This document shows, piece after piece, positions 20,912 through 24,629 of a DNA stretch of 64,000 bases (the first letter of the stretch is position 1; each line of letters begins with the position of its first letter). Origin of the DNA: a virus; IMG/VR virus record IMGVR_UViG_3300035633_000651, positions 45,678 to 109,677 of that record; one strand, given 5' to 3'. The position numbers and the translations under genes were made by a program. Under the pieces are notes generated by a model. It was given only the letters and a program-made list of their open reading frames with translations, was not told the DNA's origin and searched no databases.

Positions 20912-21299
20912 GCGCTTTTACGTGGCCGCCACGCTGTCCGACCGAGACCTCGCTTCCCGGCTCATCATGTCCGCCCCTGCGAACTGGATGTGCACCTTCA
21001 ACTGGACCGAGGTGGAGCCGGCCAAACCCGACGTCACGGAGCGTCGCCGGATCGCGCTGTGCGAGGTGGCGGCCGTCCAGCACGCCGACCTGCTGGTGCT
21101 CTTGCTTCCTGGGGCTCGGGGTTCGCACACGGAGCTAGGGGTCGCGCTGGGGGCCGACATCCCGGTCTACATCACGTACCGCGCCGAGGACGCGCCAGCG
21201 CGCGACTGTGCCTTCTACTGGCACCCTGCGGTGCAGGGCCACATTCCCGTCGACGACCTGCTGATGGAGCCTTGGCCCGAGGTCTTTGAGAACTGTTGA
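20904..21299 (+). CDS. Nucleoside 2-deoxyribosyltransferase-like (NDT/DNPH1 fold) protein
   Basis: FYVAA...E..AVQHADLLVLLLPGARGSHTELGVALG. Confidence 0.7.
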   Translation: MSTRFYVAATLSDRDLASRLIMSAPANWMCTFNWTEVEPAKPDVTERRRIALCEVAAVQHADLLVLLLPGARGSHTELGVALGADIPVYITYRAEDAPARDCAFYWHPAVQGHIPVDDLLMEPWPEVFENC

Positions 21300-21327
21300 C
21301 ATCCTCTCGGGGGCTGAGTATGTCAAC
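21295..21327. promoter_or_regulatory. Inverted box pair / probable promoter-operator of ro60
   Basis: GTTGACATCCTC-N9-GAGTATGTCAAC. Confidence 0.65.
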
Positions 21328-21333
21328 GCTCCC

Positions 21334-21397
21334 GCGGCACTGGGGCCGCTCATCACTTGCTCGGACCGGGACGGTCTGAGCCGAAGGAGGTCCGACC
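21334..21397 (+). promoter_or_regulatory. Structured 5' leader of ro60
   Basis: Hairpins at 21334-21349 and 21359-21381; alternative pairing TCGGACC/GGTCCGA overlaps the SD AAGGAGG. Confidence 0.5.
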
Positions 21398-23032
21398 ATG
21401 GACTACACCAAGCACCTCCGCGCCCACCAGCGCGAGCGCGCCAAGAGCACGCAGACCAAGAACGCCGCTGGCGGCTACACCTTCCAGCTGGACGCCCTCG
21501 GGCGCCTGCAGCGCTTCCTCATCCTGGGAAGCGAGGGAGGCACCTACTATGCCAACGAGCGCGACCTGACCCGCGACAACGTTGCCACGCTCGATGGCAT
21601 CCTTGACAAGGCCGGCGAGGCCATCGCCGCCGTTCGCCTGATCGAGGAGGTCTCGACGCAGGGCCGCGCGCCCAAGAACGACCCGGCCATCTTCGCGCTC
21701 GCCTACATCACGGCGAACAGCAAGCACGACGAGGTCCGCGCCGCTGCCTACAAGGCGATGCCGCGCGTCTGCCGGACGGGCACGCACCTGTTCCAGTGGG
21801 CGGACCTGATGAAGAAGCTGGGCAGCTCGCTCGGAAGCTCGGGCGCGAAGCGGGCCATCAGCCGGTGGTACCTGGAGAAGGACCCCCAGAAGCTGGCCCT
21901 GCAGGTCACGAAGTACAAGCAGCGGTCGGGCTGGACCCACCGCGACGTGATGCTTCAGGGCCATGTCCACCCGCCCGGCGGACAGTCGATGGACGCCCGC
22001 GTGATGCGCGACGTGCTCCAGTACGCTGCGAAGCCGGACACCGTCGAGTTCTCGAAGGACTCGGCCATCGGGCTGCTGTACGCCGCGCAGGCGCTCCCGT
22101 ACGCGAAGACCGAGGCGGAGGTGGTCAAGCTGATCACCGAGTACAAGGCGCCGCGTGAGCTGGTGCCGACCGAGCACCTGAACTCACCGGCGGTCTGGGA
22201 GGCCTTGCTGGAGGACATGCCGATGACCGCGACCGTGCGGAACCTCGGCAAGATGACCTCGGTGGGTCTGCTGAAGCCGCTGAGCAACTCGACCAAGAAG
22301 GTCCTGGACCGGCTCGGAAACGCCGAGCAGGTGCTGCGCTCGCGAATGCATCCGCTGAACGTCCTGGTCGCGAAGCTGACCTACGAGCAGGGCCGCGGCA
22401 CGCGAGGCTCGTTGAGCTGGGACGTGGTGGGGTCTGTGGTGGGTGCGCTCGAAGGTGCCTTCTACAGCGCGTTTGGCAACGTGCGCCCGAGCGGAAAGCG
22501 GACACTGGTTGCAGTGGACGTCTCCGCCTCGATGGACGGGTGTTGGGGCTTCGGCGTCCAGGACGTCTGCGGGTGCCCGGCACTCACGCCTCGCATCGCG
22601 GCGGCGTGCATGGCCATGGTGACCCTGCGGACCGAACCCTTGGTCCACATCGTGGGCTTCAGCCACAAGCTGGTGCCCATCAACGTCCGGCCCTCGGACA
22701 GCCTGGAGACCGTCGTCGAAAAGATGAAGCGGGTTCCTATGGGCGGGACGGACGCAGCGCAGCCGATGCTCTACGCCGCCCAAGAGGGCATCAACGTGGA
22801 CGGCTTCGTGTCGTACACCGACAACGAAACCTGGGCCGGGTACCACCACCCGTTCGAGGCTCTGAACGCCTACCGGAAGAAGCAGGGCATCGACGCCCGC
22901 ATGGTGACGGTGGCCTTCACCGCGACCGAGTCGACCATCGGGGACACCGAGGACACAGGCTCGCTGGACGTGGTCGGGTTCGACACCGCGGCGCCTCAGC
23001 TGATCGCGGACTTCGTCGGAGGCCAGGTCTAG
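21398..23032 (+). CDS. rsr: Ro60/Rsr RNA-binding protein (TROVE + vWA)
   Basis: NAAGGY.F, RLQRFLILGSEGGTYY, VCRTGTHLF, KYKQRSGWTHRD, MPMTATVRNLG, MIDAS DVSAS, GGTD, YTDNETW, DVVGFD. Confidence 0.95.
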   Translation: MDYTKHLRAHQRERAKSTQTKNAAGGYTFQLDALGRLQRFLILGSEGGTYYANERDLTRDNVATLDGILDKAGEAIAAVRLIEEVSTQGRAPKNDPAIFALAYITANSKHDEVRAAAYKAMPRVCRTGTHLFQWADLMKKLGSSLGSSGAKRAISRWYLEKDPQKLALQVTKYKQRSGWTHRDVMLQGHVHPPGGQSMDARVMRDVLQYAAKPDTVEFSKDSAIGLLYAAQALPYAKTEAEVVKLITEYKAPRELVPTEHLNSPAVWEALLEDMPMTATVRNLGKMTSVGLLKPLSNSTKKVLDRLGNAEQVLRSRMHPLNVLVAKLTYEQGRGTRGSLSWDVVGSVVGALEGAFYSAFGNVRPSGKRTLVAVDVSASMDGCWGFGVQDVCGCPALTPRIAAACMAMVTLRTEPLVHIVGFSHKLVPINVRPSDSLETVVEKMKRVPMGGTDAAQPMLYAAQEGINVDGFVSYTDNETWAGYHHPFEALNAYRKKQGIDARMVTVAFTATESTIGDTEDTGSLDVVGFDTAAPQLIADFVGGQV

Positions 23033-24384: not shown

Positions 24385-24629
24385 GGCTTCACCGCCCAAA
24401 AGTGGTCGAACTCGGACTGGTACATGGTCTCGTCCTCGCCGCAGTGGCGGCACTCTAGACGGATCCAGTTGTCCCCCTTGGGCCGGATGACGACGGCCAT
24501 GCGGCGGTCCTCGTGGAGCCCGTCGGGGTTGCACACAGGACAGGGCTTGGTCGAGTCTTCGATGTACTCGATCCGCGACCCGTCGCCGCGCACGAAAGGG
24601 TGGCTAGGTGTCAATGCTTTGTCGTTCAA
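24381..24629 (-). CDS. Zn-ribbon protein
   Basis: CPVC...CRHC. Confidence 0.6.
   Translation of the reverse strand: MNDKALTPSHPFVRGDGSRIEYIEDSTKPCPVCNPDGLHEDRRMAVVIRPKGDNWIRLECRHCGEDETMYQSEFDHFWAVKP

What the first reader, a model, noticed from the sequence alone, without database searches (positions are those of the whole stretch)
21334..21400. ro60 leader looks like a Y-RNA-mimic translational switch
Seen: TCGGACC (21361-21367) can pair with GGTCTGA in a 10-bp hairpin (21359-21381), leaving the SD free. Alternatively it can pair perfectly with GGTCCGA (21389-21395), which overlaps the end of the SD AAGGAGG and lies 2 nt before the ATG. Known: GGUCCGA is the conserved Ro60-binding strand of metazoan Y RNAs. 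GCCGAAG (21380-21386) also fits the bacterial Y RNA motif as I recall it (GNCGAAN0-1G). Inference: Ro60 autoregulates by binding its own leader. Short motifs in GC-rich DNA could be chance.
Basis: partly seen in the sequence, partly recalled or inferred. Interest (0 to 1): 0.75.

Follow-up and report, generated by a model that had tools for sequence, protein, structure and literature searches.

The report
Y-RNA-mimic hairpin before phage Ro60
Just ahead of the ribosome-binding site of this phage's Ro60 gene is a small hairpin that copies, with its strands in swapped order, the stem by which Ro60 is thought to grip its partner Y RNAs. The same design recurs before Ro60 genes in many phages and bacteria, so Ro60 probably limits its own synthesis, though nobody has tested this.

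Summary
Taken alone the motifs are not significant: GGTCCGA occurs 23 times and GNCGAAN0-1G 207 times in the window, and the fold z-score is -1.6. Comparison with other genomes makes the element real.

- **The element.** The 10-bp hairpin 21359-21381, bulged C21382 and GAAGG, together with the 5' flank CACUUG, reproduce the bulged-C lower stem of Y RNAs in permuted strand order. The Ro-contacted strand runs into the SD.
- **Recurrence.** The same hairpin-C-G(G/A)AGG design lies 11-16 nt before the start of 59 of 207 non-redundant Ro60 genes. Control gene starts give 15 of 844.
- **Blind test.** A covariance model built without the window puts its best hit in the whole window exactly on this leader.
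- **Own Y RNAs.** The phage's three Y-like RNAs lie 42 kb away and share the core C[C]GAAG / CACUUG.

The most likely function is autogenous translational repression by Ro60, relieved when Y RNAs titrate it. This is inferred, not shown.

It is 7.4 kcal/mol less stable, unpopulated in the ensemble, and not conserved.

I found no Rfam family and no paper describing this. Earlier notes of this scan report the same idea on other genomes.

The parts
21296..21324 (+). Promoter-like site: TTGACA (21296-21301), 17-nt spacer, TATGTC (21319-21324). It would start the Ro60 mRNA near 21330-21333, giving a leader of about 65 nt.
   Evidence: Read from the sequence. The -35 is identical to the phage's early promoters listed, and the -10 resembles their TATGGT/TATGCT but ends in C. 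The generic sigma-70 scan did not call it. Inferred, weak.
21334..21349 (+). Small 5-bp hairpin near the 5' end, GCGGC-ACUGGG-GCCGC.
   Evidence: Present in the minimum-free-energy fold. Not seen as a conserved feature in other leaders; role unknown.
21354..21359 (+). CACUUG, the Y-RNA 3'-strand-like flank. G21359 pairs with C21381. U21358 and U21357 can pair with G21383 and A21384 across the bulge.
   Evidence: Sequence. Identical to the 3' strands of this phage's own Y-like RNAs, CACCUUG and CACUUG. The extension pairs have a probability of only about 0.15 in the naked RNA.
21359..21381 (+). 10-bp hairpin, GCUCGGACCG-GGA-CGGUCUGAGC with one G-U pair. It is the closed lower stem of the permuted Y-RNA mimic.
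   Evidence: Minimum-free-energy structure with pair probabilities 0.88-1.0. It is the top hit of covariance model R1, built without the window: 21353-21392, 18.4 bits, E 0.043.
21382..21382 (+). Bulged C, the counterpart of the bulged C of the Ro-binding helix of Y RNAs.
   Evidence: In 59 related leaders this position is C 54 times and U 5 times. The alignment column is invariant C in A2.
21378..21387 (+). GAGC[C]GAAGG, the mimic of the Y-RNA 5' (Ro-contacted) strand. It contains the GNCGAAN0-1G match GCCGAAG (21380-21386) and runs into the SD.
   Evidence: The same core, C[C]GAAG, is found in the phage's three Y-like RNAs. The Y-RNA 5' strands of 121 loci read GGGC[C]G(A/G)A or GAGC[C]GAA. 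The motif definition is from PMC4201824.
21384..21390 (+). Shine-Dalgarno AAGGAGG, 7 nt before the ATG. Its first bases belong to the mimic strand.
   Evidence: Sequence. In related leaders the bulge lies mostly 11-16 nt before the start, so the SD directly follows or overlaps the mimic.
21389..21395 (+). Second Ro-like heptamer GGUCCGA between the SD and the ATG. It is a perfect complement of 21361-21367 and is specific to this window.
   Evidence: Sequence. The alternative helix is 7.4 kcal/mol worse and unpopulated. This region is not conserved.
21398..23032 (+). Ro60 (TROVE + vWA) gene, 544 aa.
   Evidence: Pfam, PDB relatives, and 7782 homologues at E <= 1e-50 among the 8000 candidates scored.

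Best explanation
The Ro60 mRNA leader carries an autogenous operator that is a circularly permuted copy of the Ro60-binding stem of Y RNAs.

**Topology.** In a Y RNA the 5' strand (GGGC[C]GAAG or GGUC[C]GA) and the 3' strand (CACUUGCCC) come from the two ends of the RNA and form a helix with one bulged C. In the leader the order is 3'-strand-like CACUUG, a stem closed by a short loop, then 5'-strand-like GAGC[C]GAAGG. The same local helix forms, and its Ro-contacted strand continues straight into the Shine-Dalgarno sequence.

**Proposed mechanism.** Ro60 that is not occupied by Y RNAs binds this helix and blocks 30S access to the SD. When Y RNAs are plentiful they compete Ro60 away and translation resumes. 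Ro60 output would then follow Y-RNA supply.

**Shown versus inferred.**
- Shown: the structure, its conservation, its position, and its likeness to Y-RNA stems.
- Inferred: Ro60 binding, repression, and titration by Y RNAs.
For: 1. **Stable hairpin.** The fold is stable and dominant in the ensemble.
2. **Recurrence.** A strict descriptor was used: G-started stem of at least 5 bp, loop of 3-20 nt, closing C, bulged C or U, G(G/A)(A/G), within 25 nt of the start.
   - Bacterial genomes: 41/69 leaders against 6/227 control SD-ORF starts (p 2.6e-25).
   - Viral contigs: 9/72 against 3/411 (p 3.5e-6).
   - Metagenome contigs: 9/66 against 6/206 (p 0.003).
   - In the first 138 leaders: 18 observed against 1.5 expected from density. 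Shuffled leaders gave a mean of 0.8 and a maximum of 4. There was a sharp positional peak at -50 to -1.
3. **Sequence-specific and Y-like.** C-G orientation is fixed at stem depths 2-4 (41-54 of 59). Inner pairs covary (depth 5: GC 24, AU 22). The bulge is C in 54 of 59. The 3' arm GGGC[C]GGA matches the commonest Y-RNA 5' strands in 121 loci: GGGCCGAA 66, GGGCCGGA 41.
4. **The leader stem variant tracks the cognate Y-RNA variant.** 25/25 GGG loci and 4/5 non-GGG loci agree, Fisher 1.8e-4.
5. **The phage's own Y-like RNAs** (genome 24150-25345, in its tRNA cluster) carry C[C]GAAG and CAC(C)UUG, as the leader does.
6. **Blind test.** Model R1, built without the window, ranks 21353-21392 first among all positions on both strands of the window.
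7. **Breadth.** The motif occurs in Myxococcota (Sorangium cellulosum So ce26, Minicystis rosea), Abditibacteriaceae, Armatimonadota and Thermoleophilaceae. It also occurs in the cultured Streptomyces phages Beuffert and Enygma.
8. **Prior knowledge.** Chen et al. 2014 state that Ro60 mainly contacts the 5' strand of the bulged helix, and that helix formation may not even be needed.
Against: - No binding or expression data exist.
- The window's element scores only 18.4 bits (E 0.043, rough calibration) and has a GAGC rather than a GGGC stem.
- Most phage leaders (63/72) lack the strict form, including mycobacteriophages Spud and Phabba and Gordonia phage Mareelih.
- The bacterial sample is dominated by one phylum, and no statistic is corrected for phylogeny.
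- An 8-mer leader-versus-cognate-Y permutation test was not significant (p 0.12).
- The pairing counts on alignment A2 are circular, because its sequences were chosen by a pairing descriptor.
- The same '3' strand, spacer, 5' strand' pattern also arises at junctions of tandem Y RNAs. The leader copy could therefore have begun as, or still be, a by-product of Y-RNA arrays.
- The permuted topology caps the end of the helix that is open in Y RNAs. Whether Ro60 tolerates this is unknown.
Confidence: 0.55

Rival explanations
1. Ro60 does bind the leader mimic, but the outcome is not translational repression. Possible outcomes:
- protection or stabilisation of the mRNA 5' end;
- targeting of the mRNA to a Ro60/PNPase degradation machine;
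- loading of nascent Ro60 in cis;
- release of the hairpin by processing as a minimal Ro60-bound small RNA (a mini Y RNA).
For: - All the mimicry evidence applies equally.
- In D. radiodurans and M. smegmatis several small Rsr-bound RNAs are processed from transcripts upstream of rsr (PMC4201824).
- In many loci rsr sits inside tRNA and Y-RNA arrays that are probably processed from long precursors.
Against: The tight and conserved spacing suggests ribosome access is the controlled step: the bulge lies 11-16 nt before the start, with the SD directly after or within the Ro-like strand. Nothing here separates the possible outcomes.
Confidence: 0.2
2. The hairpin has nothing to do with Ro60 binding. 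It could be a 5' stabiliser or RNase processing signal for an mRNA cut out of a tRNA/Y-RNA precursor. It could also be an evolutionary leftover of a Y-RNA array junction, that is the 3' strand of one Y RNA next to the 5' strand of a truncated next one.
For: - The covariance model also hits Y-Y junctions upstream of Ro60 in viral loci, which shows how such a hairpin can arise.
- Ro60 genes lie in or beside tRNA and Y-RNA arrays.
- The hairpin alone is thermodynamically unremarkable (z -1.6).
Against: - In this phage the Y RNAs are 42 kb away, yet the leader keeps the mimic.
- The leader hairpins have their own 5' arm, short loops of 3-6 nt and covarying inner pairs. The Y-like bases, the bulged C and the distance to the start are all kept across several phyla and in Streptomyces phages.
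- A neutral remnant would decay, and a generic stabiliser would not need the fixed GCCC/GGGC[C]G polarity.
Confidence: 0.15
3. One reading: a two-state switch. TCGGACC (21361-67) pairs either with GGTCTGA (SD free) or with GGTCCGA (21389-95, masking the end of the SD and the start region), and Ro60 selects the state.
For: - The perfect 7-bp complement exists. It is longer than in shuffles of that segment (7 against a mean of 3.8, p about 0.01).
- GGUCCGA equals the vertebrate Ro-contacted heptamer.
Against: - The alternative state is 7.4 kcal/mol less stable, with ensemble probability about 0.
- Only 2 of 59 related leaders (this one and L019) have 6 nt or more of such complementarity. The rest are at chance level.
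- The segment after the SD is unconserved in the family alignment.
Confidence: 0.07
4. Chance: a GC-rich hairpin and short motifs that happen to lie before the gene.
For: The motifs are frequent in this window and the fold z-score is weak.
Against: - The motif is enriched 10-fold or more at Ro60 starts in three independent collections.
- The blind model's top hit in the window falls on the leader. The chance of this is about 40 nt out of 128,000 searched.
Confidence: 0.03

Closest known systems
Ro60-binding bulged helix of Y RNAs (vertebrate GGUC[C]GA / UUGACU; bacterial and phage YrlA motif GNCGAAN0-1G; Chen et al. 2014, PMC4201824)
   Same: It has the same local helix: a G/C-rich stem, a single bulged C, then G-U and A-U pairs. 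It has the same Ro-contacted strand sequence, and the same core as this phage's own Y-like RNAs.
   Different: - The strand order is swapped: the 3'-strand-like part comes first, and a 3-nt loop closes the end that is open in Y RNAs.
- There is no upper stem, no loop and no tRNA-like domain.
- It is part of an mRNA leader and abuts the SD.
- It is not detected by Rfam Y_RNA or YrlA.
Autogenous translational operators that mimic the protein's main RNA ligand (from my own knowledge: E. coli thrS operator mimicking the tRNA-Thr anticodon arm; ribosomal proteins L1, S8 and S15 mimicking rRNA sites; archaeal L7Ae binding a k-turn in its own 5' UTR; phage T4 RegA and gp32, MS2 coat protein at the replicase start)
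   Same: A copy of the ligand's binding site sits at the protein's own ribosome-binding site. Competition between the abundant ligand and the mRNA would set the level of synthesis.
   Different: No such loop has been described for Ro60/Rsr in the papers I could search. Binding and repression are untested here. The mimic is a circular permutation rather than a direct copy.
Small Rsr-associated RNAs encoded upstream of rsr (D. radiodurans RNAs a-e and Yrn1/2; M. smegmatis YrlA and YrlB)
   Same: They lie on the same strand just upstream of the Ro60 gene, carry Ro-binding motifs, and are probably co-transcribed.
   Different: Those are discrete RNAs of 60-130 nt with their own terminal stems. The element here is about 34 nt, overlaps the SD, and is separate from the upstream Y RNAs wherever both are present.

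Membership tests
Y RNA (Ro60 partner RNA) | Conserved 5'-strand motif GGUCCGA or GNCGAAN0-1G | tested here: met
   GCCGAAG at 21380-86 and GGUCCGA at 21389-95. Motif definition from PMC4201824.
Y RNA (Ro60 partner RNA) | Bulged-C helix formed with a complementary strand | tested here: met
   G21359-C21381, bulged C21382, U21358-G21383, U21357-A21384. The stem is stable, but the two extension pairs have a probability of only about 0.15. The bulge is C in 54 of 59 relatives.
Y RNA (Ro60 partner RNA) | Helix made by the 5' and 3' ends of a discrete small RNA that encloses a large loop or tRNA-like domain | tested here: not met
   The strand order is reversed, the loop is 3 nt, and the element is continuous with the SD and coding sequence. 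No Rfam Y_RNA or YrlA match.
Y RNA (Ro60 partner RNA) | Bound by Ro60 | not testable with these tools
   Needs EMSA or RIP.
Autogenous translational operator by ligand mimicry | Lies in the regulator's own mRNA at or next to the ribosome-binding site | tested here: met
   The mimic strand 21378-87 overlaps the SD 21384-90. In relatives the bulge lies 11-16 nt before the start.
Autogenous translational operator by ligand mimicry | Resembles the protein's primary RNA ligand | tested here: met
   Same core as the phage's own Y-like RNAs and the family-wide Y 5' strands. Stem variant association p 1.8e-4, though an 8-mer permutation test was not significant (p 0.12).
Autogenous translational operator by ligand mimicry | Conserved in orthologous leaders | tested here: met
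   59/207 leaders against 15/844 controls. Blind covariance-model hit. Absent from many phage leaders.
Autogenous translational operator by ligand mimicry | The protein binds the operator and represses translation | not testable with these tools
Two-state (mutually exclusive helices) translational switch | Both states energetically accessible | tested here: not met
   -36.7 against -29.3 kcal/mol. Pairs of the alternative state have probability about 0.
Two-state (mutually exclusive helices) translational switch | Alternative helix conserved in relatives | tested here: not met
   2 of 59 leaders have 6 nt or more of complement.

The most novel reading that the evidence does not exclude
Ro60 ribonucleoprotein homeostasis in bacteria and phages is set by a general feedback loop. 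Y RNAs and a permuted Y-stem operator at the Ro60 ribosome-binding site compete for the same surface of Ro60, so Ro60 is made only as fast as Y RNAs can take it up. This phage has a reinforced version with Ro-like strands on both sides of the SD (GAGC[C]GAAG and GGUCCGA). Ro60 binding would then either clamp the SD between two sites or drive the otherwise inaccessible alternative helix.
Probability: 0.2. Interest if true: 0.85.

Novelty: new variant of a known kind. Interest (0 to 1): 0.7.

Why it matters
Ro60 and Y RNAs are conserved from bacteria to humans, and Ro60 is a major autoantigen. How cells match Ro60 to its Y RNAs is not known.

A mimic of the Y-RNA docking helix at the ribosome-binding site of Ro60 genes would supply a simple feedback rule of the kind used by ribosomal proteins and ThrRS. 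It is seen here across several bacterial phyla and in phages.

It also gives a minimal natural Ro60-binding RNA of about 30 nt in a new topology. That RNA is useful for defining what Ro60 recognises, and for finding Y RNAs that current models miss.

The idea is directly testable in tractable systems: Streptomyces phages Beuffert and Enygma, and Sorangium. For phage biology, it suggests that large tRNA-rich phages regulate an RNA quality-control factor after transcription.

Tried and rejected
- **Rfam.** No Y_RNA, YrlA or any other family lies on the leader. I searched at gathering score across the window, at E <= 10 over 17-28 kb, over 19 viral loci, over 12 bacterial and metagenome loci at E <= 1, and over the phage's tRNA cluster. 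Rfam also misses the phage's own Y-like RNAs.
- **ARAGORN.** No tRNA in the window.
- **Near-identical phage DNA.** None in the cultured phage collection.
- **First motif-only reading.** Part of the k-mer enrichment of GCCGAA, CACTTGC and GGTTATC in leaders turned out to be real standard-topology Y RNAs upstream of Ro60. I therefore replaced it with a structural descriptor and controls.
- **Shuffle of -80 to -31 only**. Uninformative, because most hairpins lie inside -30.
- **Pair counts on alignment A2**. Discounted as circular.
- **Generic sigma-70 scan.** Found no promoter at 21296-21324.
Rejected as a conserved feature.
Full report
**What is there.** The window is the 3' 64 kb of a 109.7-kb IMG/VR phage contig (about 66% complete, 64% G+C). 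ORF 21398-23032 encodes a full-length Ro60. It carries TROVE and Ro60-vWA domains. Its closest solved relatives are X. laevis Ro60, human RO60 and D. radiodurans Rsr. The 10-bp hairpin 21359-21381 is the minimum-free-energy fold and dominates the ensemble.

**The window alone is not persuasive.**
- The fold z-score is -1.6.
- GGTCCGA occurs 23 times and GNCGAAN0-1G 207 times in the window.
- Rfam sees no Y RNA and ARAGORN no tRNA.
GNCGAAN0-1G lies near the 5' end of YrlA RNAs. It resembles the GGUCCGA that X. laevis Ro60 contacts on the 5' strand of a bulged helix.

**Comparative evidence.** I collected Ro60 loci from three sources:
- viral contigs (80 loci);
- JGI metagenomes (80 loci);
- species-representative bacterial genomes (80 loci, mostly Myxococcota but also Abditibacteriaceae, Armatimonadota, Actinomycetota and others).

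This gave 207 non-redundant leaders after start-codon assignment.

Most phage loci carry one to three ordinary Y RNAs just upstream of Ro60. They read 5'-GGGC[C]GAAG...GGGUUAUC...CACUUGCCC-3'. That explained my first k-mer enrichments.

Many leaders also contain a separate small hairpin directly at the SD. It reads (U/C)-G-CCC-NN-loop-NN-GGG-C, then a bulged C, then G(G/A)AGG. Examples:
- GCCCAC-GCC-GUGGGC[C]GGGAAGG
- GCCCGG-CUA-CCGGGC[C]GGAGG
- GCUCCG-UA-CGGAGC[C]GAAAGGAG
- the window's GCUCGGACCG-GGA-CGGUCUGAGC[C]GAAGGAGG

This is the Y-RNA lower stem in swapped strand order. The hairpin's 3' arm plus the bulge equals the Y-RNA 5' (Ro-contacted) strand. The 5' flank and 5' arm equal the Y-RNA 3' strand.

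**Statistics.** A strict descriptor gives the following counts.

| Collection | Ro60 leaders | Control SD-preceded ORF starts | Fisher p |
|---|---|---|---|
| Bacterial genomes | 41/69 | 6/227 | 2.6e-25 |
| Viral contigs | 9/72 | 3/411 | 3.5e-6 |
| Metagenome contigs | 9/66 | 6/206 | 0.003 |

- In the first 138 leaders, 18 were observed against 1.5 expected from motif density. Shuffled leaders gave a mean of 0.8 and a maximum of 4. Hits peaked sharply at -50 to -1.
- C-G polarity at stem depths 2-4 is almost fixed (41-54 of 59). Depth 5 alternates between G-C (24) and A-U (22). The bulge is C in 54 of 59. It lies mostly 11-16 nt before the start.
- The 3' arm matches the commonest Y-RNA 5' strands found in 121 of the loci: GGGCCGAA 66, GGGCCGGA 41, GAGCCGAA 18.
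- The leader's stem variant follows that of the Y RNAs in the same genome. This holds for 25/25 GGG loci and 4/5 non-GGG loci (Fisher 1.8e-4).
- A coarser 8-mer permutation test was not significant (p 0.12). None of these tests corrects for phylogeny.
- Pair counts on alignment A2 are circular and carry no weight.

**Blind test on the window.** I built a covariance model from 52 such leaders, leaving the window out (A2 and R1). Run with filters off over both strands of the 64-kb window, its best hit is 21353-21392 on the + strand, at 18.4 bits and E 0.043. The score is modest for a 33-position model. Landing on the one predicted 40-nt site out of 128 kb is not expected by chance.

**The phage's own Y RNAs.** I checked this, and the remainder of the contig holds 28 tRNAs. 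It also holds three Y-like RNAs at genome 24150-25345, about 42 kb upstream of Ro60. Their 5' strands are GGAC/GAAC[C]GAAG followed by GGUUAYC. Their 3' strands are CACCUUGUUC, AACUUGUUC and CACUUGUUC. All three fold with closing terminal stems. The leader's CACUUG...C[C]GAAG is the same core. A mimic retained far from any Y-RNA gene argues against a mere array remnant.

**Cultured examples.** Streptomyces phages Beuffert (GCCCA-UAA-UGGGC[C]GAAGAAAGGA) and Enygma (GCCCU-CAA-AGGGC[C]GGAAAGGA) have the element. Mycobacteriophages Spud and Phabba and Gordonia phage Mareelih do not.

**Mechanism.** The likeliest reading is an autogenous translational operator: free Ro60 binds the mimic and occludes the SD, and Y RNAs compete. 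Structure, conservation, position and likeness to the ligand are shown. Binding, repression and titration are inferred.

Alternatives that keep Ro60 binding but change the outcome cannot be separated here. These are mRNA stabilisation, decay targeting, or release as a mini Y RNA. A non-Ro60 role, or origin as a Y-Y junction, is possible, since the model also hits such junctions. It fits the fixed Y-like bases and spacing less well.

- Pairing 21361-67 with 21389-95 is 7.4 kcal/mol worse than the hairpin state and has essentially zero ensemble probability.
- Among 59 related leaders only this one and L019 have 6 nt or more after the SD that complement the 5' arm.
- The post-SD segment is not conserved.
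- The second heptamer GGUCCGA is real and unusual (p about 0.01 against shuffles of that segment). It may be a second Ro60 contact, but there is no comparative support.

**Novelty.** No Rfam family covers the element. Four full-text searches found no paper on Ro60/Rsr autoregulation or a leader motif. The library lacks most subscription journals. Earlier AI notes of this scan describe the same permuted Y-mimic before Ro60 genes in other genomes. I reached the reading independently before seeing them, and they are not independent evidence.

**Limits.**
- Start codons and control ORFs were called by simple rules.
- The E-values of R1 are rough.

Noticed in passing
window 6163, 9443, 11898, 13505, 14354, 17488: The phage's early promoters (TTGACA-N4-CCGG-N4/5-TGT, then a TANGNT-like -10) are followed by an ATG only about 6-9 nt after the -10. 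These genes look leaderless. Ro60, with its leader of about 65 nt and strong SD, is an exception.
   Followed up: partly
own genome G000:C1:24150-25345 (outside the window, about 42 kb upstream of Ro60); locus L247: Three Y-like RNAs lie inside a cluster of 28 tRNAs. Their 5' strand is G(G/A)AC[C]GAAG followed by GGUUAYC. One carries a T-arm-like GGUUCGAUUCC. None reaches any Rfam family's gathering score.
   Followed up: partly
L010, L011, L016, L027, L048, L069, L081 and others, 60-400 nt upstream of Ro60: Phage Y RNAs occur in tandem and carry GUGGGUUAUC after the 5' strand and CCCAC...CACUUGCCC at the 3' end. From memory, this is strikingly like vertebrate hY4/hY5. Rfam calls some of them as 120-126-nt 'tRNA' matches.
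   Followed up: partly
L228 (Sorangium cellulosum So ce26), L235 (Minicystis rosea), L160, L162, L191, L203: In Myxococcota and related genomes the rsr gene is embedded in dense arrays of tRNA genes on both sides (up to about 20 in 4.6 kb), with occasional 125-nt tRNA-like matches that are likely YrlA-type RNAs.
   Followed up: no
L179, L195, L199, L203, L207, L217, L219, L222, L241 (40-70 nt upstream of the leader hairpin): A second conserved hairpin, (GA)UCGCC-ACCC-GGCGA(UC), recurs upstream of the mimic in many Myxococcota rsr leaders. Other leaders (L194, L198, L229, L239) have GCGC-UGAAGGCAAG-GCGC followed by CACU(C/U)CUCUU. Their function is unknown.
   Followed up: no
window 21386-21391 with 21414-21419: In the minimum-free-energy fold the SD GGAGGU pairs with ACCUCC in codons 6-8 (K-H-L-R of the conserved N-terminus MDYTKHLR). 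The SD may therefore be partly masked even without Ro60.
   Followed up: no
window 24465-24494 (+): This is the second-best hit of the leader model (17 bits, E 0.086; GUC-CCCCUU-GGGC[C]GGAUGACGAC). It has two non-canonical pairs and lies inside long ORFs on both strands. Probably chance.
   Followed up: partly
window 21373-21395: Three Ro-strand-like heptamers lie in a row within 23 nt: GGUCUGA (21373-79), GAGCCGA (21378-84) and GGUCCGA (21389-95). This may be a local duplication of the motif around the SD.
   Followed up: no
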